A stretch of 64,000 nt of DNA, taken from positions 182,218,001 to 182,282,000 of the forward strand of contig NC_091472.1 of assembly GCF_036971445.1 (NCBI RefSeq), in the 5' to 3' direction. Below, piece after piece: positions 6,504 through 51,136 of the stretch (positions within the stretch are counted from its first letter, which is position 1; each line of letters opens with the position of its first letter). Both the position numbers and the translations under genes were made by a program. The notes beneath the pieces are model-generated. The model saw only the letters and a list, made by a program, of their open reading frames with translations, had not been told where the DNA came from and did not search any database. The stretch is from Narcine bancroftii (taxonomy: Eukaryota).

Positions 6504-8318
6504 TTTTTTCTTTGGCTTGACTTCGCGGACGAAGATTTATGGAGGGGGTAAAAAGTCCACGTCAGCTGCAGGCTCGTTTGTGGCTGACCAGTCCGATGCG
6601 GGACAGGCAGACACGATTGCAGCGGTTGCAAGGGAAAATTGGTTGGTTGGGGTTGGGTGTTGGGTTTTTCCTCCTTTGCCTTTTGTCAGTGAGGTAGGCT
6701 CTGCGGTCTTCTTCAAAGGAGGCTGCTGCCCGCCAAACTGTGAGGCGCCAAGATGCACGGTTTGAGGCGTTATCAGCCCACTGGCGGTGGTCAATGTGGC
6801 AGGCACCAAGAGATTTCTTTAGGCAGTCCTTGTACCTTTTCTTTGGTGCACCTCTGTCACGGTGGCCAGTGGAGAGCTCGCCATATAATACGATCTTGGG
6901 AAGGCGATGGTCCTCCATTCTGGAGACGTGACCCATCCAGCGCAGCTGGATCTTCAGCAGCGTGGACTCGATGCTGTCGACCTCTGCCATCTCGAGTACC
7001 TCGACGTTAGGGGTGTGAGCGCTCCAATAGATGTTGAGGATGGAGCGGAGACAACGCTGGTGGAAGCGTTCTAGGAGCCGTAGGTGGTGCCGGTAGAGGA
7101 CCCATGATTCGGAGCCGAACAGGAGTGTGGGTATGACAACGGCTCTGTATACGCTTATCTTTGTGAGGTTTTTCAGTTGGTTGTTTTTCCAGACTCTTTT
7201 GTGTAGTCTTCCAAAGGCGCTATTTGCCTTGGCGAGTCTGTTGTCTATCTCATTGTCGATCCTTGCATCTGATGAAATGGTGCAGCCGAGATAGGTAAAC
7301 TGGTTGACCGTTTTGAGTTTTGTGTGCCCGATGGAGATGTGGGGGGGCTGGTAGTCATGGTGGGGAGCTGGCTGATGGAGGACCTCAGTTTTCTTCAGGC
7401 TGACTTCCAGGCCAAACATTTTGGCAGTTTCCGCAAAGCAGGACGTCAAGCGCTGAAGAGCTGGCTCTGAATGGGCAACTAAAGCGGCATCATCTGCAAA
7501 GAGTAGTTCACGGACAAGTTTCTCTTGTGTCTTGGTGTGAGCTTGCAGGCGCCTCAGATTGAAGAGACTGCCATCCGTGCGGTACCGGATGTAAACAGCG
7601 TCTTCATTGTTGGGGTCTTTCATGGCTTGGTTCAGCATCATGCTGAAGAAGATTGAAAAGAGGGTTGGTGCGAGAACACAGCCTTGCTTCACGCCATTGT
7701 TAATGGAGAAGGGTTCAGGGAGCTCATTGCTGTATCTGACCTGACCTTGTTGGTTTTCGTGCAGGAGCAAGGGGGAGACGGCGGCCCCGGCCTCGGTCGA
7801 GTGAGGCAGGCGGAGGCCCCGGTCCGGACAGGGAGTGGGAGGCGGCGGCCCCAGTCCAGGCACAGGGAGAGCAGCAGCGGCCCCGGCCCCGGTCCGGGCG
7901 AAGGGTAGACGGCGGCGGCCCCGATACGGGCAGGAGCAAGGGGGAGGCGGCGGCCCCAGTCCGGGCACAGGGAGAGCAGCGGCGGCCCCGGCCCCGGTCC
8001 GGGCGAAGGGTAGACGGCGGCGGCCCCGATACGGGCAGGAACAAGGGGGAGACGGCGGCCCCGGCCTCGGTCGAGTGAGGCAGACGGAGGCCCCGGTCCG
8101 GGCAGGGAGTGGGAGGCGGCGGCCCCAATCCAGGCACAGGTGAACTGCGGCGGCCTCGGCCCTGGTCCGGGCAGTATGGACCGACCTAGGAGGGGAGGCA
8201 GGCCCCTCCAGCCCGGGTAAGAAACCTGCATAGGAAAAGGCCACTCCGATATAAAACCTACGACCCAAGGACCTCGCTGCCACGTCCCAGCTTGCTTGGC
8301 CACGGCACACGAACCATG
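6504..8318 (-). mobile_element. Young RTE/BovB-type LINE insertion, 5'-truncated, with an appended GC-rich segment
   Basis: RT (KQGCVLAP, LFADD) and C-terminal CxxC...H zinc finger in 6562-7764; 11-bp TSD GGTACATATGT at 6493-6503 and 8319-8329. Confidence 0.95.
7761..8172 (+). repeat. GC-rich higher-order tandem repeat (about 27-40-bp GGCGGCCCC subunits; 105-bp and 274-bp periods)
   Basis: GCAGGA(G/A)CAAGGGGGAG recurs at 7761, 7930 and 8035. Confidence 0.9.
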
Positions 8319-8959
8319 GGTACATATGTAACCTTGGGTTAATATCAGATAGTCAGCTCACTGACAGTGTTAGCCTGTTTCAGCTTTATTCTCTGAAAAG
8401 CGATTTGAATCTTCAAACCGGATTTAGAATCGGTCTCACTCAAGTAACTACATGTCAGAAAACATTCCATTTGCAGTGAAATGTTTCAAACTAGTCTGAA
8501 TTTGTGATTGGTGCTATGTATATGCAAGTCTTTTCCTTTGTTCCCTTACTCGCACAGTAACTGCGAGATCTACCATTATTCCCCACTGCACCCCTACAAA
8601 GATAGGTGATTCTGAAAAGGCTTTTCAAGGTGGACACCAAGAAGCAATTTCTCAGAGTGGGAGGGCATGCATTGAGGCCGATAAACCTTATCATCTGAAG
8701 GTTGCGAATCTTTGCAGTTCTCACTCCAAGATGCCTGGAAGTGGTCAAGCATAGAATAAAATAAAAGCAGGGTTGGTTAGACTTTTAGGATCCAGAGGGA
8801 TCGATGTATGCGATGATCAGATGGGGAAGTGGATTTGAAGTCATCATCTTGTTGAATGGCCACACAGGTTCCACATGTCATCAACTCATGGAGTCATACT
8901 GTCCTGCAATGTAAATACATGCTGACGTCTATGCTGACCATCAATACAGATAGATTCTT

Positions 8960-19779: not shown

Positions 19780-21968
19780 CACGTCTGCTTCAGGCTCATT
19801 GGTGATTGACAAGACTGATGCGGGACAGGCAGGCACGGTTGCAACGGTTGCAAGGGAAAATTGGTTGGTTGGGGTTGGGTGTTGGGTTTTTCCTCCTTTG
19901 TCTTTTGTCAGGGAGGTGGGCTCTGCGGTCTTCTTCAAAGGAGGTTGCTGCCCGCCGTCAATGTAGCAGGCACCAAGAGATTTCTTTAAGCAGTCCTTGT
20001 ACCTCTTCTTTGGTGCACCTCTGTCTCGGTAGCCAGTGGAGAGTTCACCATATAACACGATCTTGGGAAGGCGATGGTCCTCCATTCTAGAGACGTGACC
20101 CACCCAGCGCAGTTGGGACTTCATCAGCATGGATTCGATGCTTGCGGACTCTGCCAGCTCGAGTACTTCGATGTTGGTGATGAAGTCATTCCAATGACTG
20201 TTGAGGATGGAACGGAGATAGCGCTGATGGAAGAGTTCTAGGAGCCGTAGGTGATGCTGGTAGAGGACCCATGATTCGGAGCCTAACAGGAGCGTGGGAA
20301 TGACAACGGCTCTGTACACGCTGATCTTTCTGTGTTTCTTCAGGTGGTTGTTTTTCCAGACTCTTTTGTTTAGTCTTCCAAAGGCGCTATTTGCCTTGGC
20401 AAGTCTGTTGCCTATCTCTTTGTCGATCCTTACATCAGATGAAATTGTGCAGCTGAGGTAGGTAAACTGGTTGACCGTTTAGAGTTCTGTGTGCCCGATA
20501 GAGATGTGGGGGGGCTTGTAGTCATGGTGGGGAGCTGGCTGATGGAGGACCTCAGTTTTCTTCAGGCTGACTTCCAGGCCAAACATTTTGGCAGTTTCCG
20601 CAAAACAGGACTTCATGCACTGGAGAGCTGGCTCTGAATGGGCAACTAAAGTGGCATCGTCTTCAAAGAGTAGTTCACGGACAAGTTGCTCTTGTATCTT
20701 GGTGTGAGCTTGCAGGCGCCTCAGATTGAAGAGACTGCCATCCGTGCGGTACCGGATGTAAACAGCGTCTTCATTGTTGAGGTCTTTCATGACTTGTTTC
20801 TGCAACATGCTGAAGAAGATAGTAAAGAGGGTTGGTGCGAGGACGCAGCCTTGCTTCACGCCGTTGTCAATGGAGAAGGGTTCAGAGAGCTCATTGCTGT
20901 ATCTGACGCGACCTTGTTGGTCTTCGTGCAGTTGGATAACCATGTTGAGGAACTTTGGGGGGCATCCGAGGCGCTCTAGTATTTGCCAAAGCCCTTTCCT
21001 GCTCACGGTGTCAAAGGCTTTGGTGAGGTCAACAAAGGTGATGTAGAGTCCTTTGTTTTGTTCTCTGCACTTTTCTTGGAGCAGTCTGAGGGCAAAGACC
21101 ATGTCAGTAGTTCCTCTGTTTGCGCAAAAGCCACACTGTGATTCTGGGAGGACATTTTCGGCGACACTAGGTATTAGTCTATTAAGGAGAATCCTTGTGA
21201 AGATTTTGCCTGCAATGGAGAGCAGCGTGATTCCCCTGTAGTTTGAGCAGTCTGATTTCTCACCTTTGTTTTTGTACAGGGTGATGATGATGGCATCACA
21301 AAGGTCCTGAGGCAGCTTTCCTTGGTCCCAGCAGAGCATGAAAAACTCGTGCAGTTTGGTATGCAGAGATTTGCCGCCAGCCTTCCAGACCTCTGGGGGG
21401 ATTCCATCCATACCTGCTGCTTTGCCACTTTTCAGTTGTTCAATTGCCTTATATGTCTCTTCCCGGGTAAGGACCTCATCCAGCTCTAGACTCAAGGGTT
21501 GTTGAGGGAGCTGGAGCAGGGTGGATTTTTGGACTGAGCGGTTGGCACTGAAAAGGGATTGGAAGTGTTCTGACCATCGATTGAGGTTGGAGATCTTGTC
21601 GCTGAGGAGGACTTTGCCATCTGAGCTGTGCAGAGGGCTTTGGACTTGGGGTGAGGGGCCGTACACAGCCTTTAGAGCCTTGTAAAAACCCCTGAAGTCG
21701 CCAATGTCGGCGCTAAGCTGGGTTCATTTGGTGAGGCTAGTCCACCACTCATTTTGGATCTCCCATAGTTTGCACTGAAGATGGCTGCTTGCGAGACGGA
21801 AGGCTCGTTTTTTCTCTGGCCAGGAAGGCTTTGCAAGGTGAGCCTGGTGGGCAGATCGCTTCTTTGCCAGCAGCTCCTGGATTTCCTGGTTGTTTTCATC
21901 GAACCAGTCCTTGTTTTTCCTGGAGGAAAAGCCCAGTACCTCTTCAGTGGATTGCAGTGGATTGCAGT
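19777..21968 (-). mobile_element. Older degenerate RTE/BovB-type copy
   Basis: ORFs 20479-21666 and 19654-20319 are RTE RT pieces with frameshifts, FADD changed to FEDD, and an internal deletion near 19955. Confidence 0.95.
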
Positions 21969-22794
21969 ATATATATATATAAACTTTTTCTTTTTCTCAC
22001 AAAGCAAAACAAAACATAACAACAACTCCTTCCCTCCCACCCCCTTCACAGTAGTATAAATCCATACGCCATCAGGGCTTACAGTTGGGTTTTAAAAAAG
22101 TCTTTATTTATTTTTATAACAGTAGCGTCTTTTTTTAATAATTGTATTTCAGCCCCTATATAATCCAAATATGTTTTCCATATTGTTTATAAATACGCCA
22201 TATTTGTTCTTTAGATAGTATGTGATTTTTTTTCCATAGGTATACAACTGTTCAACTTGGTCTTCCTTCGTGCTATCTGTAGAGGGGAGATGAATTTCCA
22301 AATAATTACAATATAGTTTTCTTAGCCGCAGCTATAGCTATTTTAATAAATTAAATTTGGAATTTAGTTAATTTATTACTTATTTCAATAGAGTTGCCCA
22401 AAAGATAAAGCTCTGGGTTGTCTGTACCACCACTGTTATCCTTGAGAGTATTTCAGTAATATCCTGCCAGAAAGATCACACATGACTACGTAGCATGTAC
22501 AAACGATCCTATTTCTGTTCTGCGTCTAAAACACACCTCCGATATTTTCAATTTTGATTTATGTAATTTTTGTGGTGTGATGTATAATTAGTGTAGAAAA
22601 TTATATTGTATTAATCTGTATCTTGCATTTATAATTGGCATCATGCTATCCAAACTCCAATCACACCAGCATCTTTTCATTATTGCAACTCTAGAAACTG
22701 GCTCCCATTTCTCTCTCTCTCAATCTCTGTAAACCTAGCTTTGCACTTTCATTTTGAAGAACAAAGTACATCTTATATATAAATGTAGGTGTGT

Positions 22795-22929: not shown

Positions 22930-25900
22930 AGGTGTGTTCCCCAGCCAAATAGTTCATTCCATCTCATTAACTTCTCGTGGGGGGGGGGGGGAGGGAAACA
23001 AGTTTGCTCCCCATCTTTCTCTTAAGAATGATCTTAACTGGAGAAAGTAAAAAAATGTCCCATTAGCTACTCCATACTTATGTCTTAATTGTTCAAAAGA
23101 CATGAGATCCTTCCATATAGCAATCATCAACATTTCTTATTCCTTTGTCACACCATGAATTCAATATTTTGTTACCCAGATTCATAGGCAGTAGTACATT
23201 TTTACATAATGGTGTCCTCAGTGATATACCTGCTCGTTACTCATTTATTTCTTGCCGTATTTTAATCACGTGTATTAATATAGGATTACCTGGTTTTTTT
23301 TTGTTATTCACTTAATATTTCACTTATAAATAAAGTCCTTCATTTCTCTTTTATTGAATTCAACCCCATTCGAATCCATGTATTCAAATATCAATTAAAT
23401 TTAAATCCTTTATAAATGATAAAGTCGTTTTAGCAGCTTTCTCCCTTGTTAATGTTCTCGCTGATTTGTCCAATATTAGGTCTAAACAAAAACTGAAATC
23501 TCCTCCAATCAATATATTTTGTCTACCCCCTGTGGTTTTTTTAGAAAGATATCCTTCATAAAGACTTCATTGTCATAATTTTGGGCGTAAATATCATAAA
23601 CGCCCATGATTCTGCGTAAATTTTAGTGTGCCATTACAAATCTACTAGCTTGGTCTCTTCCATCATTATTGGTATATTTTTATTAATTAAAATTTCTACA
23701 CCTCTTGATTTTGATCTAAATGAAGGCGATATTACTTGTTCCAACCATCATCTTTTTCATTTTGCATCTTCAAATTTGATAGGATGTGTTTTTGGTAAAA
23801 AGACTGTATTTGCCTTTAATTATTTTTAGATATCCCAAGACCCATTTTCTCTTCATTGGCCCATTAATTCCGTAAGCATTTAAATTAATAAATTTTAATG
23901 TCCTATCCATATTCTTCTTTAAAACAGTTTTTTTTTTAACAGTGAAATCTTCTTTACTCTTTAAATAATAAAGTGATCCTTCCCCTTTAAGAAAAACATA
24001 CAATATCCCTTCCCTGAATGTGACATATATAATATATAAAATAGAGAGAGAGAAAGAGTGACAGAGAGAGAGAAAGAGAGAGAGAGGGGGGGAGAAAATG
24101 AGAGAGAGAGAGAGCCTCGAAAGTCCGCAAAGAAAGCCCATGGAATCTCTTGAGGAAGAAGATTCCTTCCCTTTAGCACCATCTTTTTTTGCTACTCCTT
24201 TATGAGCACCATTCTCCCCCTTAGAGCAGAGTCTCCACCCTGCTACTACTTTGCCCAGATTTTTTTTCTTTTATTGAGCTCTCCATTAACATTTCTATAC
24301 CCTTTACTTTTAAACAATACATACAAGACGGTTTAACAAAAATTTAAAAACTACCTCTCCTACTTTTACTTAGTTCCACAATCTCCTCCATTGGCAAACT
24401 TAATCTTTTGTTTTACAAACTTTGCATCAAGTCTTCCACCTCGTTCTTGGTCTTGAAAAATCGCCGGTTCCCTTCTGCTACTTCAACCCTCAAAGTCGTG
24501 GAATATATCATTGAGAATTTCAAATTTTTAGCATGTAATTGTCTTTTCACATCTTCAAAATATTTCCTTTGTTTAATCAAGGTCAAGCTAAAGTCTTGAA
24601 AAAATGGTTCCTTTTCATGATCAGTCTCGGACGGGGCATTATTCTGCTTAAAGTAATCACATGCTTGCTCCCAAAATCATCTCCTGTCCTCAGTAGCTTA
24701 AAAGTTTCACCAGAACTAGTCTTGGTCTCTGACCACCAGCTCTTCTGGGTCCGAGTGCTTGGTGAGCAACCTCGATAATGCAGTTTTTTTTCTCCAAATT
24801 TGTCTTCTCCCAACATTTGTGGGATCCATTTATGAAAAAGGTCCACCAGGTTTATTCCCTCAATTCCTTCCTTTAGTCCAATTCAGATATTATTCCAGTG
24901 ACTTAAGTTCTCTATAAGGTCAATTTTGTCCAGCAGCCCTTGCTTATCCAATTCCCATTCTTTGGAATTTTTTTCTAAAGCCTTAAGTTTTTCATGTGTT
25001 TTCATCAATTCACTCTCTGCTCAACCAATTCTCTCTATCAGGTCTACAACACTCTTTTATTTTGGTCATTTTCTCCATTATATCTCTCATCACATGAATC
25101 GGTTACTCAAATTCTCTATTTTTTCCAGGATGTTGCTCAATTCTTGACCCGACTCCCCAGATTTATGTGGTTCTTCCAGTCACATCACCGTTTTTGCACC
25201 ATTCCCTCTCGGACTTTCACCCAAAGTTCCCAGTTGAATAGAAGATTATTTAATCTTTGTTCTTGGCTGCCTTGGTTTCTTCGTGCTACTTTTGTCCATT
25301 TCTGATGAAGAAAGTTTTGATTTTCAAGTTTTGACTGTCCATTTAGCATTCTTCACTGAGAGCTCAACCAAAACACATCTGTCTAAGTCCTTCGCATGGC
25401 CGCCCTCAGATCATCCACTTATTCAGTGAAAGCCCAATACATTTGGACGTATGTCCTCTTACAAGGTTATCATTTCTCCATATCAAACATATTTATTTTC
25501 ATTTGTGAAACACCAAAGAAACAATTAAATCCTGCAACATAACCATTGACCTGGTGCCTGGAGAGCTTATTTTTCAAAGCGTAATTTGTCCAGTTCCAGC
25601 AATTGCTTCTGCCCGAAAATTCTCCGAGGTACAACTTACTAACTATTTTCAAATTAATGTAAGCCATATTTCCAAAATATTATAATTCTAGCCAACTAGA
25701 TGATTATGCACCTTACCACAAAATGCTATAGATTTTCAGTGTACTACATGAACAGTATATATCACTAAGGGAGACTGCCGAGGGAAAATCTGTCAAGAGG
25801 AATTGCCAAATGATAAAAACAACCCCTCTTGATTTTCTTTTGAACTAAATGAACTGAATCTTCCCACCTGGTTTTTCCTTTCTACCCATCCCTCAGGAAA

Positions 25901-27091
25901 TGGTTGAGACCCAAATGAAAACTTGAAAAAGCACTACTTCAACCACAGCAGAGAATGTGCAGAAGGGATACTTAGGTAGTGTTGTTTTGACTAGATTACA
26001 ATGAGGATGTTTTGCTGTATGATCCTAGACAGAAAGCATAATTGCCCCATCTCACATTTAGATTCTAATCCCCGCTGCTCTCATTTCATGTGCACCACGC
26101 TTTGGCATTGTGCAAGAACTGCTCTCCATGTGGTTAGATTTCACAGAGCTTGGTGAGGAATCTGATGTGGGGATGGGAACTGTTTGACTTGGATATCTGT
26201 GGCAATGCCGAAGCATTAGCGACAGCCCTGGGAGCAGGGCCAAAATGCCCCAGGGAGCAGGATACAATGTGCACCTGATCAAAACCAACAGCCAGCTGTT
26301 TATTTGCCTCAAGTAAATCCCAACAAATTTAGCACATCGATATCCCCACAGACATGCATGGAGGATATTTGAATGGATCAAATGTATTCTGGCACATGCT
26401 TTAAATGTAATCAATTTAATCTTACCATCTCGTACATGATAATATGGAAAAGAGATGTCATTTTCAGCGGTGCTATAAAAGTAGCTATTTTCGCAGTAAA
26501 ATAATTTTAGAGCTATAAAGGTACAAGCCACTAAGCATGAGATTTATCACTAACATTTACATTACCAAAACACTTAAAACTGAATTGCTAACAAGAAATG
26601 CAAAAAAAAACCCTAAAGTATTTGGTCTTGAGCAAAATGTTATTAAGAATGTACATTCCCAGTTTATAATATGGTCAGAGGATAACTTCGTTCAGTAAAG
26701 GTGGAGCACATTTAACTTGGTTTTACATTTGATTATCTAGCTATGGTTCTCCAAGCTAAGGTACACTGATGGGCAGCAGGTCCGAAACCTGTCTTTAGGA
26801 GCAGGGGCAAGCTTAATCTAATGAGCTAGTTTTTGATGCACTCCATTATTAATATGCAAATCATCCAACACATTCAATGGATTAACAAATATGCCTTAAA
26901 TTGCAAGTCTCTAGAATTTGAAGCTCACTTGCACTGCTCTGATGTCTGTTTCAGATGAACAACTATTTGGCCTTGTTCTACAAAATTTGATGGATTTACA
27001 TGTTAATTACCCATTACACTCACTACTGAAATTTTGTGCTGGAATTCACACGAGAAGTACTTATTGTGCAAATAATATATTTATAGATATT

Positions 27092-27342
27092 GGGCAGCAC
27101 GGTTGGCAGAGTGGTTTATGCAACGCCTTGACACCACCAGCGATCAGGACCGCGGTTCGAATCCTGCGTTGTCCTTAAGGAGTTTGTACATTGTCCCTGT
27201 ATCTATGTGGATTTTCCCCAGGACCTCCGGTTTCCTCCCATGGTTCAAAATGTACTGAGGGTGTGGGTTAATTGGGTGTAAATTAGATGGCACGGACTTG
27301 TGGCCGAAATGGCCTGTTACCGTGCTGTATGTCTAAATTAAA
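27092..27342 (+). mobile_element. Full-length HE1-like SINE with Pol III boxes
   Basis: A-box-like TGGCAGAGTGG, B-box GGTTCGAATCC, TCCGGTTTCCTCCCA core, CR1-like tail GGCCTGTTACCGTGCTGTATG. Confidence 0.85.
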
Positions 27343-29573
27343 ATATTTTATAAATTTAATGCAATGCCATTCAGCTTCTCTGGTTCAGAAAAGGATAAAT
27401 AAAACTACAATGAATCAAAAAATGCTGGGAACACTCATCAGGCCAGGCAGCAACGATAAAAGTACAAAAAGAGTTAACATTACAAGCAAATAACCTCACT
27501 GTCTAAGTTTGTGTGAAAACGGGTTTGTCATCTGGACATTGTGGAAACAGGAAAGAAAAATCTAGGGCAATATATCTGCTTCTTTTCCTCAGTGATGCCT
27601 TTTTAGTTTTCAAAGTGGGGTCAGATGTAGAGTGAAGAGAACACAGAATTTCATCACTTCTGCTGAAAATTAGGCAGGCTGTGATGGGCACGTGTCATAT
27701 TGTTTGGGGGAATAAATAGCTGGTGATCAGTGCAGTTAAACTGTAGAAATAAACAAAAACTTAAAAATAGGTTAAGCAGGAAGAGCCTGGTAAATGTAGC
27801 AAAAGGCAAAACAAAAAAATCCTAGTCTAGAATTGGTTATTGCTAGGTGTATCGAGATATAATAAGAACATTTACTTTGTGTAGCATACAGGAGCTTGCA
27901 AACTGTTAATGTAATCACCCTTTGGCGCCATTCTGGATTTACGAGAAAAGGTTCACAGAAAATCCAAAGCTTGAGCAATGAGGTGGCACAAGCTGAAAAT
28001 GATCATAATGAAGGCACTTTGAGTGACCAGGCAGAAACAGGTGGCACACAAGATTTCGACTTAGTACTTCTGGTTTTCAGATTTAAATCTAATGGAAGAA
28101 GTTAGTTACTCACTTGGGACCATTTCAAATACCTTTGTTTGACTCGAGGACTGTGGTTCTCAACCTTTTTCTTTCCACTCATGTACTATTTTAAGTAATC
28201 CCCATGCCATCGGTGCTCTGTGATTAGTAGAAACATAGAAAGATAGAAGATAGGAGCAGGAGTAGGTCATTCGACCCTTCGAGCCTGCTCCGCCATTCAA
28301 CGAGATCACGGCTGATCTTAAAGTTCAGTACCACGTCCGCGCCTTCTCTCCGTAACCTTTAATACCCTTATACTGAAGAAATAGATCTAATTCCCTCTTA
28401 AATATATTTAATGAACCTGCCTCTACTGCCCTCTGTGGCAATCAATTCCACAGATTCACCACCCTCTGGGTAAAGAAATTCCTCCTCATCTCGGTCCTAA
28501 ATGGTTTGCCTATTATCCTCGAACCATGGCCCCAGGTTCTGGACTCCCCCACCATTGGAAACATCCCATCTGCATCCATTCTGTCCAGTCCTGCCAGAAT
28601 TTTATATGTCTCTATGAGATCCCCTCTCAATCTTCTAAACTCCAGCGAGTACAATCCCAATTTGCGCAATCTTTCCTCATAAGTCATTCCTGCCATTCCA
28701 GGGATCAGCCTGGTGAATCGCCTCTGCACTCCCTCCATTGCAAGAACATCCTTCCTTAGATAAAGTGACCAAAACTGCACACAATACTCCAGGTGTGGTC
28801 TCACCAAGGCCCTGTACAGCTGCAGTAAGGTATCCTTGTTCCTATACTCAAACCCTCTTGATATGAAGGCCAACATACCATTTGCCTTTTTAACCGCCTG
28901 CTGTACCTGCTTGCTCGCCTTCAGAGACTGGTGTACAAGTACCCCTAGGTCTCTCTGCACTTCCCCATCTCTTAATCTATTGCCATTCAAATAGTAATCT
29001 GCCCTCCGGTTTGTATTAGCAAAGTGGATAACCTCACATTTATCCACATTGTAGTGCATTTGCCATGTATCTGCCCAGTCCCTCAATTTATCCAAATCAC
29101 ACTGGAGCTACCTGACCCCCTCTTCCATGCTCACAACCCCTCCTAGCTTAGTGTCATCTGCAAATTTGGAGATATTACATCCAATCCCCTCATCCAGATC
29201 ATTAATGTAAATTGTGAACAGCTGGGGTCCCAGTACAGATCCCTGTGGCACCCCACTGGTCACCGCCTGCCACTCAGAAAATGAGCCATTTATCCCAACT
29301 CTCTGTCTTCTACCTGCCAACCAGTTCTCAATCCACATCAATACTTTGCCCCAATCCCATGAGCCTTGAGTTTGTAAGCCAGTCGTTTATGCGGGACCTT
29401 ATCGAAGGCCTTTTGGAAGTCCAGGTACACCACATCCACTGGCTCTCCCCCATCTATTTTGCCTGTCACCATCTCAAAGAATTCCAATAGATTTGTCAAG
29501 CACGATTTACCTTTTGTAAATCCATGTTGACTCTGTCTGATCCCTTCTCTGCTGGTCATATGCTCCGCTATTA

Positions 29574-29696
29574 CAGGTTCATTAAATATATTTAAGAGGG
29601 AATTAGATCTATTTCTTCAGTATAAGGGTATTAAAGGTTACGGAGAGAAGGCGGGGACGTGGTACTGAACTTTAAGATCAGCCGTGATCTCGTTGA
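29574..29696 (+). repeat. Inverted 123-bp copy of the CR1 3' region at 28297-28419
   Basis: Reverse complement with one mismatch by eye (GCGG versus GGGG). Confidence 0.92.
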
Positions 29697-30966
29697 TTAT
29701 CCAACTGCACGAAAACCAAAAAGGTCGGGTCAGATACAGCAATGAGCTCTCTGAACCCTTCTCCATTAACAATGGCGTGAAGCAAGGCTGTGTTATGGCA
29801 CCAACCCTCTTTTCAATCTTCTTCAGCATGATGCTGAACCAAGCCATGAAAGACCCCAACAATGAAGACGCTGTTTACATCCGGTACCGCACGGATGGCA
29901 GTCTCTTCAATCTGAGGCGCCTGCAAGCTCACACCAAGACACAAGAGAAACTTGTCCGTGAACTACTCTTTGCAGACGATGCCGCTTTAGTTGCCCATTC
30001 AGAGCCAGCTCTTCAGCGCTTGACGTCCTGCTTTGCGGAAACTGCCAAAATGTTTGGCCTGGAAGTCAGCCTGAAGAAAACTGAGGTCCTCCATCAACCA
30101 GCTCCCCACCATGACTACCAGCCCCCCCACATCTCCATCGGGCACACAAAACTCAAAACGGTCAACCAGTTTACCTATCTCGGCTGCACCATTTCATCAG
30201 ATGCAAGGATCGACAATGAGATAGACAACAGACTCGCCAAAGCAAATAGCGCCTTTGGAAGACTACACAAAAGAGTCTGGAAAAACAACCAACTGAAAAA
30301 CCTCACAAAGATAAGCGTATACAGAGCCGTTGTCATACCCACACTCCTGTTCGGCTCCGAATCATGGGTCCTCTACCGGCACCACCTACGGCTCCTAGAA
30401 CGCTTCCACCAGCGTTGTCTCCGCTCCATCCTCAACATCCATTGGAGCGCTTACATCCCTAACGTCGAAGTACTCGAGATGGCAGAGGTCGACAGCATCG
30501 AGTCCACGCTGCTGAAGATCCAGCTGCGCTGGATGGGTCACGTCTCCAGAATGGAGGACCATCGCCTTCCCAAGATCGTGTTATATGGCGAGCTCTCCAC
30601 TGGCCACCGTGACAGAGGTGCACCAAAGAAAAGGTACAAGGACTGCCTAAAGAAATCTCTTGGTGCCTGCCACATTGACCACCGCCAGTGGGCTGATATC
30701 GCCTCAAACCGTGCATCTTGGCGCCTCACAGTTTGGCGGGCAGCAACCTCCTTTGAAGAAGACCGCAGAGCCTACCTCACTGACAAAAGGCAAAGGAGGA
30801 AAAACCCAACACCCAACCCCAACCCACCAATTTTCCCCTGCAACCGCTGCAATCGTGTCTGCCTGTCCCGCATCGGACTTGTCAGCCACAAACGAGCCTG
30901 CAGCTGACGTGGACTTTTTACCCCCTCCATAAATCTTCGTCCGCGAAGCCAAGCCAAAGAAAGAAA
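29694..30966 (+). mobile_element. Young RTE/BovB-type LINE, 5'-truncated, inside the CR1
   Basis: Uninterrupted ORF to 30907 (LFADD, zinc finger), AAAG tail; CR1 resumes at ACATCC. Confidence 0.97.
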
Positions 30967-33099
30967 ACATCCTTAATAATGGATTCCATCTTTTTGCCCA
31001 CTACTGATGTAAGGCTCACTGGCCTATAATTCCCCGCTTTTTCTCTACCCCCCCCTTTTTAAATAGTGGGGTAACATTAGCTACCCTCCAATCCATGGGT
31101 ACTGATCCTGCGTCTATCAAGTTCTGGAAAATAATATTCTGAAAGCATCTGCTATCTGAATGGCCACTTCCTTAGATACCCTAGGATGTATCAGGCCCTT
31201 GGGATTTATCTGCCTTCAATCCCATCAATTTCCCCAAGACCATGTCCTTAGAGATACTGATTTCTTTCAGTTCCTTCCTTGCATTAGTCTCTATGTTTCC
31301 CAACATCCTTGGGAGGTTATTTGTATCCTCTCTTGTAAAAACAGAACTAAAGTAAGAATTTAATTGGTCTGCCATTTCCTTATTCCCCATTATATATTCC
31401 CCTGATTCTGACTGCAAAGGACCTACTCTGGATTTCACCAATCTTTTCCTCTTGACATATTTATAAAAGCTTTTGCGGTCGGTTTTTATATTTGCCACAA
31501 GCTTACTTTCGTAATTTATTTTTGCTCTCTTGATTAATCCCTTTGTCCTCCTTTGGTGCATCTTGAACTGCTCCCAGTCTTCGGTTGTGCTACTTTTTTT
31601 GGCCAATTGATATGCTCTCTCTTTGGACCCAATGCTGTCTCTAATTTCCCTTGTTATCCACGGTTGAGTCACCTTTTTTTGGTTTATTTTTATGCCAAAC
31701 CGGTATAAACGATTTTTGCAATTTCTCCATTAGATCTGTGAATGCTTTCCATTGTCTATCCACAGTGAACTCCCCCATAAACACCACCCAATCAATCTTA
31801 CTCAACTCCCGTCTCATACCATCATAATTCCCTTTATTTAAATTCAGGACCTTAGTCTCGGTTTTAATTTCATCACTCTCCATGTCGAGTGAGAATTCGA
31901 TCATATTGTTATCGCTCCAACCCAAAGGGCCTCGTACAACAAGATTGTTGATTAGCCCCTTATCATTGCATAATACCCAATCTAAAATGGCCTGCTCCCA
32001 AGATGGTTCCTCAACATATTGGTCTAGATAACCGTCCCGTAAACATTCAAGGAATTCCTCCTCCTCAGTATTTTTACTAATTTGGCTAGTCCAATCTATA
32101 TGCAAATTAAAGTCTCCCATGATGACAGCTGTTCCCTTATTGCACGCTTTTCTAATTTCTCTTTTAATGCCTTCCCTCACCTCTACACTACTATTTGGAG
32201 GCCTATATACCACCCCAACTAACGTTTTCCGCCCCTTGCTATTCCTCAGTTCTACCCATATAGATTCCGCATCTTCCGAGTTGATATCCTTTCTGTCAAT
32301 CGTGTCGGTCCCTTCTCTCACCATCAATACTACCCCACCCCCTTTTCCTTCTTGCCGATCCTTCCTAAATATCGTATACCCCGGGATGTTAAGTTCCCAG
32401 GCTTGCCCACCCTGCAGCCATGTTTCTGTAATCCCAATCAAATCATATTTGTTTATCTCAATTTCCACAGCTAATTCATCTACCTTGTTCTGAATGCTTC
32501 TTGCATTAAGATATAAAGCCTTCAGATTTGCTTTTTTCACCCTCCTTGCTCTTTCTGATTTTTTTGCTTTCACTGCCTAACCTAACTTTTCCTGTTTTAT
32601 CTTTTCTGTCCTTTGCCCTATCATACAGGTTCCCACCCCCCTGACAAATTAGTTTAAACCGCACCCGACGGCTGTACCAAACCTAGCTGCCAATATATTG
32701 ACCCCTTTTGGGTTTAGGTGTAACCCATCCTTCTTGTAGAGGTCATGCCTTCCCCAAAAGAGATCCCAATGATCCAAGAAGCCAAAACCCTGCTTAAGGT
32801 GGTAATGTGAGAGGGAAGGGAAGGTTGAGATAAACACAGCTCGAGACCCAATTGTGACTGAAATATTTTGCTTGAGAAAAATTGTCATTGGCCCATTTCC
32901 TTTGGAGTTATGAAACTGTGCACATAACGAGTCAATTCGGAATGATTAAAACAGTGATTTTCAAACTTTTTCTTTCCACCCACATACCACCTTAAGCAAT
33001 CCCTTATTAATCACGGAACATTTTATGGCATAGGGAATACTTAAAGTGGTATGTGAGTGGTAAGTAAAAGGTTAGGAACCACTGATCTAAAGTAAGTAG

Positions 33100-33840
33100 A
33101 GCAGGAGGATAAGAACACAGCCCTGTGGTGCTCTGGTACTGATGGAGATTGTGGAGGAGATGTTCTTACCAGTCCTTACTGATGTACTGTGGAGATGAGG
33201 ATATCTGGGATCCAATTACACAGTGGGGTATTAAGATCCAGGTCTTAGAGTTTTCTGATCAATTTTAAGGGGATGATATTGTTCAATGCCAAACTGTAGT
33301 TGATAAAGAGAACCCTGATGTATGCATCTTTGCTGTCCAGGTGTTTCTCGGCTATGAGTAGAGCCAATGAGATGGTGTTCGTCGTAGACCTGTTGCTATG
33401 ATGGGCAAACTGGAATGGATCCATATTACTGCTCAGGCAGGACCTGATATGTTTCAACACCAACCTTTCAAAACATTTCATCACTGTGGATGTTGATAAT
33501 CATTTTGGCAGGTTACCACACTCTTCTTGGGCACCAATATGTTTGATGCCCCTTTAAAACAGATGGGTACCTACCAGAGTGAGATGTTGAAGATATTTGC
33601 GAATACATTGCTAAGTTGGTCAGCACAGATTTTTAATACTCGGCTGGGTTCTCCGTCCAGACTGGATGCTCTCCTCAGATTCACTCTCCTGAAGGCAGGT
33701 TGCACATCATCCTCATATATGGAGAGGAGGGGATTATCAAGGGGACAGTGGTGATTCTTTCTTGTTCTTGCAGTCATATCAGGTGTAGAAGGCATTAAGT
33801 TCATCTGGAAGTGAAGCTTTGCCATCTCCTACTGCACCAG
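33100..33840 (-). mobile_element. Rex1/Babar RT remnant
   Basis: MKCFERLVLKHI...DPFQFA...NRST...YIRVLFINYS and VLKICADQL motifs. Confidence 0.85.
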
Positions 33841-34261
33841 ATTTGTTCATAACAATGAATGCAGATGAATCATGATTATTCTGATTGAACAGCAAAGAAG
33901 ACCAAATATATGAATAAACTATGAGAATTTCCAGCAATAAAACTTTTGCGCAAATTATGTGGGATCCATTAATTAATTTGATGGAAGTATTTTGTCAGAT
34001 TAAGTGTATTATATCTGACAATTGTGGGTATGATGTCCTAGACAGAAGTAGGCATCACCTTGACATAAATGCAACATCTGACCCAGGGTTAAGTATTGGG
34101 GGAACATTATCACTTAAATGGAATGTTCAATAACGAAAACTCATATGAATTGCCTCATAGAAATAGAGTTTTAAATTCACTTGGATTTGGCAAATAACCA
34201 AATATCATTTAACCAAAGTTGAAAAAACAGTTTTAGCATCACCATAAAAACAAGAATCAAA

Positions 34262-37154
34262 CAGCAGAAAAGAACCAGCAGAAAAGAACAAGTTCTACAC
34301 CGACCTGCGCAACCTCATCCAACGTACCCCTACAGCCGACAAGGTTGTCATCCTGGGCGACTTCAACGCTCGTGTCGGCAAAGACTCAGAAACCTGGCCA
34401 GGAATCCTGGGCAAGCATGGCGTCGGCAAGTGCAACGACAATGGGCGCCTCCTGTTGGAGCTCTGCGCAGAACAGCGGCTTGTCATTACAAACACCCTTT
34501 TTCAGCAGAGGGACAGCCTTAAGACCACCTGGATGCATCCCCGATCCAAACACTGGCACCTCCTGGACTACATCCTGGTGCGAGAAAGTGACAAACAAGA
34601 TGTGCTCCACACCAGGGTCATGCCTAGCGCGGAATGCCACACTGACCACCGGCTGGTTCGCTGCAAGCTCAACCTTCACTTCAAGCCAAAGCCCAGGAAC
34701 AATAAAGCCCCCAGAAAGAGGTTCAATGTTGGAAAACTGCAGTCAGACGAAGCGAGAGGAAACTTCCAGGCAAACCTCAAAGCAAAGCTCGACGTTGCAA
34801 CCCGCCTCACGGACCCGTCCCCTGAAACCCTCTGGGATCAGTTGAAGACTACCATACTGCAATCCACTGAAGAGGTACTGGGCTTCTCCTCCAGGAAAAA
34901 CAAGGACTGGTTTGACGAAAACAGCCAGGAAATCCAGGAGCTGCTGGCAAAGAAGCGAGCTGCCCACCAGGCTCACCTTACAAAGCCGTCCTGTCCAGAG
35001 AAAAAACAAGCCTTCCGTCGCGCATGCAGCCATCTTCAGCGCAAACTCCGGGAGATCCAAAATGAGTGGTGGACTAGCCTCGCCAAACGAACACAGCTCA
35101 GCGCGGACATTGGCGACTTCAGGGGTTTCTACGAGGCTCTAAAGGCTGTGTACGGCCCCTCACCCCAAGTCCAAAGCCCGCTGCGCAGCTCAGATGGCAA
35201 AGTCCTCCTCAGCGACAAGATCTCCATCCTCAACCGATGGTCAGAACACTTCCAATCTCTTTTCAGTACCAACCGCTCAGTCCAAGATTCCGCCCTGCTC
35301 CAGCTCCTTCAACAGCCCCTAAGGCTAGAGCTGGATGAGGTTCCCACCCTGGATGAGACATATAAGGCAATCGAACAACTGAAAAGTGGCAAAGCAGCAG
35401 GTATGGATGGAATCCCCCCAGAAGTCTGGAAGGCTGGCGGCAAAACTCTGCATGCCAAACTGCATGAGTTTTTCAAGCTTTGTTGGGACCAAGGTAAACT
35501 GCCTCAGGATCTTCGTGATCCCACCATCATCACCCTGTACAAAAACAAAGGCGAGAAATCAGACTGCTCAAACTACAGGGGAATCACGTTGCTCTCCATT
35601 GCAGGCAAAATCTTCGCTAGGATTCTACTAAATAGAATAATACCTAGTGTCGCCGAGAATATTCTCCCAGAATCACAGTGCGGCTTTCGCGCAAACAGAG
35701 GAACCACTGACATGGTCTTTGCCCTCAGACAGCTCCAAGAAAAGTGCAGAGAACAAAACAAAGGACTCTACATCACCTTTGTTGACCTCACCAAAGCCTT
35801 CAACACCGTGAGCAGGAAAGGGCTTTGGCAAATACTAGAGCGCATCGGATGTCCCCCAAAGTTCCTCAACATGATTATCCAACTGCACGAAAACCAACAA
35901 GGTCGGGTCAGATACAGCAATGAGCTCTCTGAACCCTTCTCCATTAACAATGGCGTGAAGCAAGGCTGTGTTCTCGCACCAACCCTCTTTTCAATCTTCT
36001 TCAGCATGATGCTGAACCAAGCCATGAAAGACCCCAACAATGAAGACGCTGTTTACATCCGGTACCGCACGGATGGCAGTCTCTTCAATCTGAGGCGCCT
36101 GCAAGCTCACACCAAGACACAAGAGAAACTTGTCCGTGAACTACTCTTTGCAGATGATGCCGCTTTAGTTGCCCATTCAGAGCCAGCTCTTCAGCGCTTG
36201 ACGTCCTGCTTTGCGGAAACTGCCAAAATGTTTGGCCTGGAAGTCAGCCTGAAGAAAACTGAGGTCCTCCATCAGCCAGCTCCCCACCATGACTACCAGC
36301 CCCCCCACATCTCCATCGGGCACACAAAACTCAAAACGGTCAACCAGTTTACCTATCTCGGCTGCACCATTTCATCAGATGCAAGGATCGACAATGAGAT
36401 AGACAACAGACTCGCCAAGGCAAATAGCGCCTTTGGAAGACTACACAAAAGAGTCTGGAAAAACAACCAACTGAAAAACCTCACAAAGATAAGCGTATAC
36501 AGAGCCGTTGTCATACCCACACTCCTGTTCGGCTCCGAATCATGGGTCCTCTACCGGCACCACCTACGGCTCCTAGAACGCTTCCACCAGCGTTGTCTCC
36601 GCTCCATCCTCAACATCCATTGGAGCGCTCACACCCCTAACGTCGAGGTACTCGAGATGGCAGAGGTCGACAGCATCGAGTCCACGCTGCTGAAGATCCA
36701 GCTGCGCTGGATGGGTCACGTCTCCAGAATGGAGGACCATCGCCTTCCCAAGATCGTATTATATGGCGAGCTCTCCACTGGCCACCGTGACAGAGGTGCA
36801 CCAAAGAAAAGGTACAAGGACTGCCTAAAGAAATCTCTTGGTGCCTGCCACATTGACCACCGCCAGTGGGCTGATAACGCCTCAAACCGTGTATCTTGGC
36901 GCCTCACAGTTTGGCGGGCAGCAGCCTCCTTTGAAGAAGACCGCAGAGCCCACCTCACTGACAAAAGGCAAAGGAGGAAAAACCCAACACCCAACCCCAA
37001 CCAACCAATTTTCCCTTGCAACCGCTGCAATCGTGTCTGCCTGTCCCGCATCGGACTGGTCAGCCACAAACGAGCCTGCAGCTGACGTGGACTTTTTACC
37101 CCCTCCATAAATCTTCGTCCGCGAAGCCAAGCCAAAGAAGAAAAGAAAAAAAAA
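34262..37154 (+). mobile_element. Longest young RTE/BovB-type LINE copy, truncated within the endonuclease
   Basis: 16-bp TSD AAAAACAAGAATCAAA (34246-34261, 37155-37170); A/AAG tail. Confidence 0.98.
34263..37085 (+). CDS. RTE polyprotein reading frame (partial APE endonuclease, RT, C2H2-like finger); no native start codon
   Basis: Open frame with VILGDFNARVG, HLLDYIL, TDH, NYRGITLL, KQG, LFADD and CNRC...SH; conserved KAFD reads KAFN here. Confidence 0.85.
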   Translation, partial: SRKEPAEKNKFYTDLRNLIQRTPTADKVVILGDFNARVGKDSETWPGILGKHGVGKCNDNGRLLLELCAEQRLVITNTLFQQRDSLKTTWMHPRSKHWHLLDYILVRESDKQDVLHTRVMPSAECHTDHRLVRCKLNLHFKPKPRNNKAPRKRFNVGKLQSDEARGNFQANLKAKLDVATRLTDPSPETLWDQLKTTILQSTEEVLGFSSRKNKDWFDENSQEIQELLAKKRAAHQAHLTKPSCPEKKQAFRRACSHLQRKLREIQNEWWTSLAKRTQLSADIGDFRGFYEALKAVYGPSPQVQSPLRSSDGKVLLSDKISILNRWSEHFQSLFSTNRSVQDSALLQLLQQPLRLELDEVPTLDETYKAIEQLKSGKAAGMDGIPPEVWKAGGKTLHAKLHEFFKLCWDQGKLPQDLRDPTIITLYKNKGEKSDCSNYRGITLLSIAGKIFARILLNRIIPSVAENILPESQCGFRANRGTTDMVFALRQLQEKCREQNKGLYITFVDLTKAFNTVSRKGLWQILERIGCPPKFLNMIIQLHENQQGRVRYSNELSEPFSINNGVKQGCVLAPTLFSIFFSMMLNQAMKDPNNEDAVYIRYRTDGSLFNLRRLQAHTKTQEKLVRELLFADDAALVAHSEPALQRLTSCFAETAKMFGLEVSLKKTEVLHQPAPHHDYQPPHISIGHTKLKTVNQFTYLGCTISSDARIDNEIDNRLAKANSAFGRLHKRVWKNNQLKNLTKISVYRAVVIPTLLFGSESWVLYRHHLRLLERFHQRCLRSILNIHWSAHTPNVEVLEMAEVDSIESTLLKIQLRWMGHVSRMEDHRLPKIVLYGELSTGHRDRGAPKKRYKDCLKKSLGACHIDHRQWADNASNRVSWRLTVWRAAASFEEDRRAHLTDKRQRRKNPTPNPNQPIFPCNRCNRVCLSRIGLVSHKRACS

Positions 37155-37783
37155 AAAAACAAGAATCAAAGAATATGGGAAAAATGTCAAATTTATGGCT
37201 TTTGGTCATTGTTGAAACAATAAGCAGCCATTACATTGAGCAAAATGGCTTGTAGATGTCATTGAGCATCACAGGGCAAAATAACAGAATTAAAATCAGT
37301 AAATACTGACCCAGTAAATATTGACCCAGGATTATGTCAGCTCAACTGCTGTGTATGTTAATTCAATTCTTTTATGCCAATGGTATCCTGATGTTGAAAC
37401 TCATTTTTCAGAATTGCAAATACACCATTTTGATGAATAAGCTTATCAAGGCTTCAACTCCCATTGATATACCCCTCAATACTGCCAGGGAAACAAGTGC
37501 TCCAATAAACACAGATCATCCCCTAGCCCGCCATAAAACCAAATAACCTCGCGACAACAGGGCAGTGGAGTGAGAGAAATATGGCCTCAATGCCAAGAGT
37601 TAGCTGACCTGGAGTTTTAGTTCTCATATTCATGTGAATGCTGTTGGCAGAGTTTGATATGTATGATTGTGTGAGGTGAGTGATGCTCATTTCACCTGTC
37701 TATAGTTTTTTTTTACTATTGATCAAAACAGGAATAATGAACACAGGACTGTTGTGATAAGGGTGAAGGGAGAAATGAGGGAA

Positions 37784-40002: not shown

Positions 40003-41389
40003 TGTTGTTTGTGGAGGAAACTGTGACCTCCATCCCTGTCTGGAATGTGTGTATCACAGGTTGTGATATGTCGTCCCCATCTGAAACTTATTCTGAAGTC
40101 ACGTCACCTATTAATCAAGGTTGGACTCCAGCCACCCCTTGATGCACACATCGCCATTGGTAATTTAAATCACCTAGGGTCATTATTGGTTAGAAGCACA
40201 GATTTACTGCAACACTCGCCAAGGCAAATAGCGCCTTTGGAAGACTACACAAAAGAGTCTGGAAAAACAACCAACTGAAAAACCTCACAAAGATAAGCGT
40301 ATACAGAGCCGTTGTCATACCCACACTCCTGTTCGGCTCCGAATCATGGGTCCTCTACCGGCACCACCTACGGCTCCTAGAACGTTTCCACCAGCGTTGT
40401 CTCCGCTCCATCCTCAACATCCATTGGAGCGCTTTCATCCCTAACGTCGAAGTACTCGAGATGGCAGAGGTCGACAGCATCGAGTCCACGCTGCTGAAGA
40501 TCCAGCTGCGCTGGATGAGTCACGTCTCCAGAATGGAGGACCATCGCCTTCCCAAGATCGTGTTATATGGCGAGCTCTCCACTGGCCACCGTGACAGAGG
40601 TGCACCAAAGAAAAGGTACAAGGACTGCCTAAAGAAATCTCTTGGTGCCTGCCACATTGACCACCGCCAGTGGGCTGATAACGCCTCAAACCGTGCATCT
40701 TGGCGCCTCACAGTTTGGCGGGCAGCAACCTCCTTTGAAGAAGACCGCAGAGCCCACCTCACTGACAAAAGGCAAAGGAGGAAAAACCCAACACCCAACC
40801 CCAACCCACCAATTTTCCCCTGCAACCGCTGCAACCGTGTCTGCCTGTCCCGCATCGGACTTGTCAGCCACAAACGAGCCTGCAGCTGACGTGGACTTTT
40901 TACCCCCTCCATAAATCTTCGTCTGCGAAGCCAAGCCAAAGAAGAAAAGAAGAATATAACACCAACGCACAGCACCTATTCTCTTTCTGCCTCGTGGTCC
41001 AAGCCCCGGATACCGCTCCATGCCAGGTTGCTACTGTGGACGTCGCTGGAAGGACCACGGGTAAAGTGTGCACTTCACTGAAGCTGAGCCATAGTATTGC
41101 GATAGATTAATATTTGCAATAGAGCCGCACCCCCATTGATCAGGGAAGCTGGAGTGTGTGTAAGAGTCCCTGTTTATAGTGTGTGAGCGATGTCAAATAT
41201 AGGTTTATCATTGTTGGAGTCTAACTGATGTCTGAGGTGAACTTCTGCATTGTCGCTTATGTGAATTGTAATTGTTACCATTTCACGTTCTCCCCTGTTT
41301 GTTTCCTGTGTGCTAATAAAAGTTACATATGATTGTGACACTTGTGCCCAGACTGTGAACCCATTGAACCTGATACTCCTAATTCAACA
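40003..41389 (+). mobile_element. Solo LTR (about 650 bp net) interrupted by an RTE
   Basis: TGTTG...CAACA termini, flanks CCATC/GCATC (4 of 5 match), AATAAA at about 41315. Confidence 0.65.
40214..40952 (+). mobile_element. Young RTE/BovB-type 3' fragment
   Basis: Near-identical to 36410-37145; (GAA)-type tail. Confidence 0.97.
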
Positions 41390-50994: not shown

Positions 50995-51136
50995 NNNNNN
51001 NNNNNNNNNNNNNNNNNNNNNNNNNNNNNNNNNNNNNNNNNNNNNNNNNNNNNNNNNNNNNNNNNNNNNNNNNNNNNNNNNNNNNNNNNNNNNNNNNNNN
51101 NNNNNNNNNNNNNNNNNNNNNNNNNNNNNNNNNNNN
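50995..51136. other. Assembly gap (142 N)
   Basis: Direct read. Confidence 1.

What the first reader, a model, noticed from the sequence alone, without database searches (positions are those of the whole stretch)
29574..29700. RTE 5' junction patched with an inverted copy of the host CR1's own 3' end
Seen: between the CR1 body and the RTE lie 123 bp that are the reverse complement of 28297-28419, 1.2 kb away in the same CR1, with one mismatch. Microhomologies are CA on the left and TGA on the right, and the TSD is at most ACA. Inference: a locally templated insertion (polymerase-theta-like repair) or an RT template jump onto CR1 RNA, giving a CR1-RTE chimera. It also creates a 123-bp inverted repeat with a 1.15-kb loop.
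Basis: partly seen in the sequence, partly recalled or inferred. Interest (0 to 1): 0.7.

Follow-up and report, generated by a model that had tools for sequence, protein, structure and literature searches.

The report
Inverted flank copy at retrotransposon junction
A truncated RTE retrotransposon sits inside an older CR1 element with a 123-base inverted copy of DNA from 1.15 kb away at its 5' joint, likely a repair scar copied from the neighbouring DNA while the insertion was being sealed, a rare outcome already described for human L1 insertions.

Summary
29574-29696 is the reverse complement of 28297-28419 (123 nt, one mismatch, 1154-nt loop), wedged between a minus-strand CR1 and a 5'-truncated RTE, with CA and TGA microhomologies and a 0-3 nt TSD. 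The donor is very likely this CR1 copy. Both arms carry T at 29660, where 99.8% of family depth in two public runs (one sample) reads G. The single mismatch is a derived change in the source arm, as expected for the RTE's age. The piece stops about 69 nt short of the CR1 3' end and has no tail, which argues against a jump onto CR1 RNA. Best model (about 0.55; local DNA templating of any kind about 0.8): during RTE integration the upstream end was resected, folded back at CA, extended 123 nt, displaced, and joined to the cDNA at TGA. The mirror route, primed by the cDNA, gives the same product. Human L1 shows this junction class (about 0.3% of somatic insertions). Only the long loop with 2-nt homology and the RTE, non-mammalian setting are unusual. 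No listed contig bridges either junction, so reads do not yet confirm it. A one-off scar; low interest.

The parts
29574..29696 (+). 123-nt inverted copy of the local CR1 segment 28297-28419 (end of ORF2 plus 28 nt of 3' UTR, CR1 sense on +), inserted at the RTE 5' junction
   Evidence: translation in the CR1 frame
28297..28419 (-). Donor arm inside the host CR1, 1154 nt from the insert
   Evidence: shares the rare 29660/28333 allele with the insert
29574..29575 (+). CA microhomology between the CR1 flank and the insert (overlaps the TSD)
   Evidence: loose ends at 29574 and 29575
29694..29696 (+). TGA microhomology between the insert and the RTE 5' truncation point
   Evidence: loose ends at 29694 and 29696
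29660..29660 (+). Rare variant T shared by insert and donor (partner 28333); the family reads G
   Evidence: table 3: G in 724836.9 of 726088 depth (X1) and 784928.9 of 786473.7 (X3); no mismatch between the arms here
29654..29654 (+). The single arm mismatch (partner 28339): the insert codes Gly, the donor Arg; Gly is the state in homologues, so the donor arm is inferred to have mutated later
   Evidence: 15 of 16 homologues that reach the motif have Gly (16 of 120 listed reach it)
29694..30967 (+). 5'-truncated RTE-type LINE (3' part of RT, C-terminal Cys/His motif, about 60-nt 3' UTR, A-rich tail)
   Evidence: 98.6% identical to the longer copy at 35872-37144; RVT_1 hit; ORF ends at 30907
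29573..29575 (+). Left copy of the maximal TSD (ACA)
   Evidence: sequence
30967..30969 (+). Right copy of the maximal TSD (ACA); first letter ambiguous with the RTE tail
   Evidence: sequence
28228..29575 (-). Host CR1, 3' part (RT, C-terminus, 3' UTR, microsatellite tail), decayed by stops and a frameshift
30967..32791 (-). Host CR1, 5' part (APE endonuclease and linker), 5'-truncated
   Evidence: frame continuity

Best explanation
The 123-nt piece is an inverted copy of the neighbouring CR1 DNA that was likely made by fold-back DNA synthesis from the upstream target end while a 5'-truncated RTE insertion was being sealed. Shown: arms, junctions, a TSD of at most 3 nt, an intact flank, and a rare allele shared with the local copy. 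Inferred steps: (1) the RTE endonuclease nicks at TT|ACAT and primes cDNA, which stops at 29694; (2) the upstream (reciprocal) end is resected 5'->3' over at least about 1.2-1.3 kb, leaving the + strand single-stranded; (3) its 3' end, trimmed to ...ACA, folds back and pairs by CA at 28418-28419; (4) a host polymerase (theta or delta, not determinable) copies 123 nt to 28297; (5) the new strand is displaced, for example by refill of the resected strand; (6) its 3' TGA pairs with the cDNA end and both strands are filled and ligated; (7) later one substitution arose in the donor arm. The product is a one-off, non-mobile repair scar with no predicted function.
For: Local donor: at 29660 the window has T, the family G in 99.83% (X1) and 99.80% (X3) of summed contig depth and 99.98% in organism B, and the donor arm carries the same allele. 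Both arms also share C at 29609, where about half of family depth reads A. Mismatch fits age: over the 735-nt overlap with copy D, this RTE has only 2 private differences (about 0.3%), which predicts 0.74 arm differences, with P(at least 1) = 0.52. Coupled to integration: the left breakpoint lies within 3 nt of the first-strand nick, no CR1 base is lost, and the 3' end is canonical, with the same TT|ACAT target as sibling copy C. End processing: 3 of 5 sibling copies have TSDs of 16, 11 and 8 nt, against at most 3 here (the other 2 showed no credible TSD). Microhomology: 2 nt and 3 nt together have a null probability of 0.0095 (0.18 x 0.053; one case, chosen after the fact). Geometry: resection exposes exactly the strand needed as template (established DSB biology). 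Precedent: L1 insertions with inverted duplication of the reciprocal end, 2-bp homology, displaced new strand ligated to the RT end (PMC11702581 Fig. S9C caption; later version Fig. 4D-E passages).
Against: The donor site is not a favoured pairing site: its duplex energy with the flank end ranks 450 of 1965 (last 8 nt) and 1267 of 1965 (last 12 nt), and there are 134 TG sites in the upstream 2 kb. The L1 inverted duplications had small hairpins, and the approximately 1-kb L1 fold-back used 14-bp homology and gave an inversion. The product cannot tell this route from cDNA-primed copying. Only one rare allele is shared. The non-G depth at 29660 (1251 in X1) is well above the depths of the listed contig pieces (about 4-97), so a few other copies may carry T or other letters, and summed contig depth is not a copy number. 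The donor has a derived base that the insert lacks. No listed contig bridges either junction.
Confidence: 0.55

Rival explanations
1. cDNA-primed local copying: the truncated cDNA 3' end pairs by TGA with the minus strand of the upstream duplex at 28297 (strand invasion, fork or bubble), is extended 123 nt, disengages and anneals by CA to the flank end. Same donor, same product, opposite order.
For: Same local-allele evidence. The longer microhomology (3 nt) is on the cDNA side. This is the route proposed for short fold-back inversions 5' of somatic L1 insertions, 4 cases, 0.3% (10.1101/2022.05.18.492429 section 8). R2 cDNA ends also prime on nearby target DNA (PMC11371274 passages).
Against: Needs the strand that resection removes, so it requires invasion of duplex DNA 1.3 kb away with 3 nt of pairing (inference).
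Confidence: 0.22
2. The RTE reverse transcriptase switched template onto an RNA transcribed from this locus on the minus strand (CR1 sense), copied 123 nt, then joined the flank.
For: Polarity fits, and local RNA would carry the local allele. One L1 case of co-inserted nearby pre-mRNA is reported.
Against: The switch would be internal, 69 nt before the CR1 3' end. This CR1 is 5'-truncated (starts at about 32791 near the endonuclease region), so it likely has no promoter. No host gene was found on either strand: of 272 non-repeat ORFs scanned against Pfam, 4 had hits, all below the curated cut-off, and an exon-like ORF at 27866-28102 had no homologue. These searches are weak for short exons.
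Confidence: 0.08
3. The piece came from another CR1 copy or the family RNA (RT jump, or a mobilised CR1-RTE chimera), and its closeness to a CR1 3' region is coincidence, or the arms were homogenised later by gene conversion.
For: The insert keeps the ancestral base at 29654, where the local arm is derived. The family is very abundant, and polarity fits sense RNA.
Against: At most 0.2% of family depth carries a non-G base at 29660. The piece lacks the RNA 3' end and tail, which the 'extra template' class requires (PMC11371274 methods passage). The junction occurs once in the window.
Confidence: 0.05
4. Two steps: a normal RTE insertion with a longer TSD, later hit by a break whose repair deleted the RTE 5' part and most of the TSD and inserted the templated piece.
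For: Templated inversions arise at any break (PMC11724301 passages).
Against: The later break would have to end within the old TSD without losing one base of flank, which is improbable for an unrelated event.
Confidence: 0.05
5. Assembly or consensus artefact.
For: No listed contig piece bridges the junctions (32 shown, 11,567 hidden), and the best runs hold 0.80-0.81 of sampled words of 25000-34200.
Against: A mis-join would hardly fall exactly on an RTE 5' truncation, keep the TSD and the CR1 frame, show microhomology at both ends, and differ from the donor by an ancestral base (inference).
Confidence: 0.05

Closest known systems
L1 insertions with inverted duplication of the reciprocal (5') target end (PMC11702581 Fig. 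S9C; bioRxiv 10.1101/2024.12.14.628481 Fig. 4D-E; read as passages and supplement part 3 of 5)
   Same: 5'-truncated LINE; inverted copy of upstream genomic DNA between flank and element; flank kept with a short TSD; 2-bp homology at the inversion junction; similar size (figure labels give about 127 bp for S9C).
   Different: There the hairpins are small and the authors link large hairpins to inversions. Here the loop is 1154 nt with only 2-nt homology. The element is RTE-type, not L1, and sits in a genome assembly (likely germline, likely a cartilaginous fish), not in cell lines or tumours.
Short fold-back inversions 5' of somatic L1 insertions (bioRxiv 10.1101/2022.05.18.492429, section 8 read)
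   Same: Inverted duplication upstream of the target site, at the 5' junction; rare (n=3, 0.2%, plus n=1, 0.1%).
   Different: Described as short and attributed to cDNA-primed copying; distances were not in the section read.
R2 'snap-back' 5' junctions (PMC11371274, passages)
   Same: Extra DNA-templated synthesis in antisense orientation before 5' junction formation, sometimes on nearby target DNA.
   Different: Mostly templated on the cDNA itself; site-specific R2 protein in human cells.
Local fold-back templated inversions at DSBs in yeast (PMC11724301, passages) and polymerase-theta templated insertions (recalled)
   Same: Resected end folds back at a microhomology, new DNA is unwound and joined to the other end; up to about 150 bp.
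   Different: The yeast case uses a 10-nt inverted homology and a 41-nt loop, and most insertions are under 14 bp; no retrotransposon is involved.

Membership tests
L1-type reciprocal-end inverted duplication | Inverted copy of upstream target DNA at the element's 5' junction | tested here: met
   local origin
L1-type reciprocal-end inverted duplication | Flank retained, with TSD-like overlap between the two ends | tested here: met
   0-3 nt TSD, CR1 frame continuous
L1-type reciprocal-end inverted duplication | Short (about 2 bp) homology at the inversion junction | tested here: met
   CA at 29574-29575; P = 0.18 by chance alone
L1-type reciprocal-end inverted duplication | Small hairpin loop (typical of the reported cases, not a formal criterion) | tested here: not met
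   loop 1154 nt against 'small hairpins'; hence a variant geometry
L1-type reciprocal-end inverted duplication | Arises in one event with the insertion (parent or empty allele compared) | not testable with these tools
   no genome or raw reads; paralogues mask the empty allele
Polymerase theta-mediated templated insertion | Microhomology at both junctions | tested here: met
   2 nt and 3 nt; joint null 0.0095
Polymerase theta-mediated templated insertion | Short insert templated close to the break (tens of bases; recalled) | tested here: not met
   123 nt from 1.15-1.28 kb away
Polymerase theta-mediated templated insertion | POLQ dependence | not testable with these tools
   needs genetics
RT template-jump chimera (extra-template class) | Added piece in RNA-sense orientation | tested here: met
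   insert reads as CR1 sense on the RTE strand
RT template-jump chimera (extra-template class) | Copying starts at or near the 3' end of the acceptor RNA | tested here: not met
   stops about 69 nt short of the CR1 tail; criterion from PMC11371274
RT template-jump chimera (extra-template class) | Recurrence of the junction elsewhere (if mobilised) | tested here: inconclusive
   1 match in 64 kb; genome not held
RTE clade LINE (inserted element) | Single ORF with APE endonuclease and RT | tested here: met
   sibling copy 34248-37085: one 945-aa frame with Exo_endo_phos_2 (E 1.9e-5, below curated cut-off) and RVT_1; that copy is itself 5'-truncated, so absence of an ORF1 is not shown
RTE clade LINE (inserted element) | Very short 3' UTR ending in an A-rich repeat (recalled criterion) | tested here: met
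   stop at 30905-30907, tail ends about 30967
RTE clade LINE (inserted element) | RT phylogeny within the RTE clade | not tested
   no named reference set fetched; label rests on architecture and recalled motifs
CR1 clade LINE (host element) | ORF2 with APE and RT | tested here: met
   Exo_endo_phos and RVT_1 hits on the minus strand; criterion in PMC13343379 passages
CR1 clade LINE (host element) | Microsatellite 3' tail (recalled criterion) | tested here: met
   degenerate TAGAA-type repeats at about 28228-28253
CR1 clade LINE (host element) | RT phylogeny within CR1 | tested here: inconclusive
   best named homologues are skate, ray, chimaera and shark proteins (64-76% for the top five), then bird and turtle RT proteins; none is labelled CR1 and no tree was built

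The most novel reading that the evidence does not exclude
RTE elements in this lineage routinely close their 5' junctions by templated DNA synthesis, including kilobase-range fold-back with only 2-nt pairing, which breaks the small-hairpin rule seen for L1. Of 6 RTE copies in this window, this one has an inverted flank copy and 2 more show 10-14-nt tandem duplications at their 5' ends. With thousands of young copies, the genome would be a natural archive of germline resection-tract lengths during retrotransposition.
Probability: 0.15. Interest if true: 0.55.

Novelty: new member of a known kind. Interest (0 to 1): 0.24.

Why it matters
How the 5' end of a LINE is joined is still debated. This case extends a junction class known from human L1 to an RTE-type element in a likely germline, non-mammalian setting. 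Because the target was a repeat with a measurable family allele spectrum, it offers unusually direct evidence (a shared rare allele) that the patch was copied locally. If fold-back is right, it implies at least about 1.2 kb of resection during integration. As a single scar it has no predicted function, and the 123-bp arms with a 1.15-kb loop are unlikely to matter beyond a possible weak recombination substrate or RNA duplex (untested).

Tried and rejected
Own genome: not held, so no genome-wide search for other junction copies or for T-bearing CR1 copies. Exact-match scans for the CR1 segment: 0 hits in metagenome contigs and 0 in viral contigs. Public runs: only Logan contigs were offered. 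One laying on 29250-29800 (4 of 9 runs: X1 and X3 of one sample, X5, X6) gave family alleles but no listed piece bridging a junction; that is no evidence of absence. Table 3 omits some differences (X6 records 31 and 32 each have one unlisted), so absence of 29654 from it was not used; the ancestral state came from protein homologues. The first translations were out of frame and were redone. A pre-existing inverted repeat that could guide fold-back was sought and not found. Host gene and transcription direction: nothing credible in 272 ORFs or by homology search of one exon-like ORF. Independent CR1 insertion: rejected, since the piece has no tail and no TSD of its own. Twin priming: rejected, since the inverted piece is target DNA, not RTE sequence. 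Rfam scan of the 5' part of copy C: 0 hits. Earlier scan findings: none. Literature searches (open-access library only, listings and abstract starts) showed no report of this junction type for RTE elements or cartilaginous fish; this is weak evidence of absence. bioRxiv supplements and figures were not visible and may hold L1 cases with long loops; Fig. S10B labels hint at pieces 0.5-1 kb from the site, but the text is garbled.

Full report
Observation. The window holds a 123-nt inverted repeat, 28297-28419 and 29574-29696, with 1154 nt between the arms and one mismatch, 29654 against 28339. The right arm sits between a minus-strand LINE (APE and RT hits; CR1-like by tail and homologues) and a plus-strand 5'-truncated LINE that is 98.6% identical to a longer copy at 35872-37144. 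That longer copy has one 945-aa endonuclease-RT frame, as RTE elements do (label not tested by tree). CA at 29574-29575 belongs equally to flank and insert; TGA at 29694-29696 belongs equally to insert and RTE. The CR1 resumes after the RTE tail with its ORF2 frame unbroken, so no target base was lost and the TSD is 0-3 nt. Loose ends of family contigs leave the window sequence at the same points. The piece is the last 31 codons of ORF2 plus 28 nt of UTR and stops about 69 nt before the CR1 tail. The top named homologues of the CR1 are from skates, rays, chimaera and sharks, so the host is likely a cartilaginous fish.

Where the piece came from. No genome was held, so family alleles were taken from public contigs. 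Of 9 runs listed, 4 were laid on 29250-29800. At 29660 the window has T; the family reads G in 724836.9 of 726088 summed depth in X1 (99.83%), 784928.9 of 786473.7 in X3 (99.80%; same sample), and 99.98% in organism B. The donor arm has the same allele as the insert. A random family donor would match at most about 1 time in 500. Both arms also share C at 29609, where about half the depth reads A. In the adjacent 326 nt of CR1 body, 4 positions differ from 97% or more of family depth, about 1%, so only one or two private variants were to be expected in 123 nt. Caveats: summed contig depth is not copy number, and the non-G remainder (1251 in X1) is larger than the depth of any listed piece, so a few other carriers may exist. 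At the mismatch, the insert codes Gly and the donor Arg; 15 of the 16 homologues that reach this motif have Gly (16 of 120 listed), so the donor is derived. The RTE has 2 private differences in the 735 nt shared with copy D and shares 8 alleles with D against B and C; at 0.3% per arm, 0.74 differences are expected and P(at least 1) is 0.52. One later substitution in the donor is therefore unremarkable.

When it happened. The 3' end is ordinary target-primed insertion: an A-rich tail abuts TT|ACAT, the same target as sibling copy C. Sibling TSDs are 16, 11 and 8 nt in 3 of 5 copies, with none credible in the other 2. The left breakpoint lies within 3 nt of the nick with no flank loss, which ties the patch to integration and suggests trimming of the 3' overhang (inference).

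Mechanism. Shown: structure, junctions and shared allele. Inferred: 5' resection of the upstream end leaves the + strand single-stranded, and that is the strand whose copy gives the insert. The end folds back at CA, is extended 123 nt, is displaced, and anneals to the cDNA at TGA. The two microhomologies together have a null probability of 0.0095 (one case, chosen after the fact). Against this route, the donor site pairs no better with the flank end than average (rank 450 and 1267 of 1965; 134 TG sites in 2 kb). The mirror route, cDNA priming on the minus strand, gives the same product and cannot be excluded. A switch to RNA from this locus fits polarity and allele, but needs an internal switch and minus-strand transcription; the CR1 is 5'-truncated and no host gene was found (weak tests). 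A distant donor or mobilised chimera needs the rare allele by chance and lacks the RNA 3' end; the junction occurs once in the window. None of the 32 pieces listed bridges a junction (11,567 not shown), so an artefact is not formally excluded, though the fit to the insertion site makes it unlikely. Odds: fold-back 0.55, cDNA-primed 0.22, local RNA 0.08, distant donor 0.05, two-step 0.05, artefact 0.05.

Comparison. PMC11702581 (passages; supplement search and part 3 of 5) and its later version (10.1101/2024.12.14.628481, passages) describe L1 insertions with inversions or inverted duplications of the reciprocal end, by resection, self-annealing and displacement, with 2-bp homology. They note small hairpins for duplications and large ones (917-bp inversion, 14-bp homology) for inversions. 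10.1101/2022.05.18.492429 (passages and section 8) counts 4 fold-back cases (0.3%) among somatic L1 insertions, favours cDNA-primed copying, and reports one co-inserted local pre-mRNA. PMC11371274 (passages) describes R2 snap-back and extra-template junctions. PMC11724301 (passages) shows fold-back inversions up to about 150 bp in yeast, made by Pol delta plus NHEJ. PMC5786205 and PMC13343379 were read as passages for context. The structure works like the L1 reciprocal-end inverted duplication and meets its core features, but not the small loop. It fails the short-range expectation for a classic polymerase-theta insertion (recalled) and the 3'-end criterion for a template-jump chimera.

Verdict. 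A real feature of the assembled sequence, very likely locally templated, of a known kind. Seven open-access searches (listings only) showed no RTE or cartilaginous-fish report, which is weak evidence. New member of a known kind; interest 0.24.

Noticed in passing
window 6503-8325 (minus strand): RTE copy C has an 11-nt TSD that encloses about 550 nt of GC-rich, tandemly repeated sequence joined directly to the RT region at 7764. It looks like an internally deleted (bipartite) RTE (5' UTR-like part plus 3' part, as described in PMC5786205) or a chimera. Its join lies 11 nt from the truncation point of the copy studied here. No Rfam hit.
   Followed up: partly
window 34246-37170: RTE copy B: 945-aa open frame, 16-nt TSD, and a 14-nt tandem repeat right after the left TSD, possibly a junction duplication (no longer copy to compare).
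   Followed up: partly
window about 21948-21970 (minus strand): Older RTE copy E has a 10-nt tandem duplication at its 5' end relative to copy B, next to a TA run; could be junctional or later slippage.
   Followed up: partly
window 28143-28227 and 32792-32845: The host CR1 splits a MITE-like element (inverted arms I7; a whole related copy at 32946-33090, D3 and I2), giving three-level nesting MITE > CR1 > RTE, apparently with a few bases lost at the CR1 site.
   Followed up: no
window 29705-30966, 35883-37144, 6503-7764, 40214-40948: Two young RTE subfamilies in one window: copies A and D share 8 alleles against B and C.
   Followed up: partly
window 40214-40954: RTE copy D has no detectable TSD; possible target deletion.
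   Followed up: no
window 27866-28102 (+): Exon-like 79-aa open frame with AG and GT boundaries nearby; no Pfam hit and no homologue.
   Followed up: partly
window 50995-51136: Assembly gap of 142 N.
   Followed up: no
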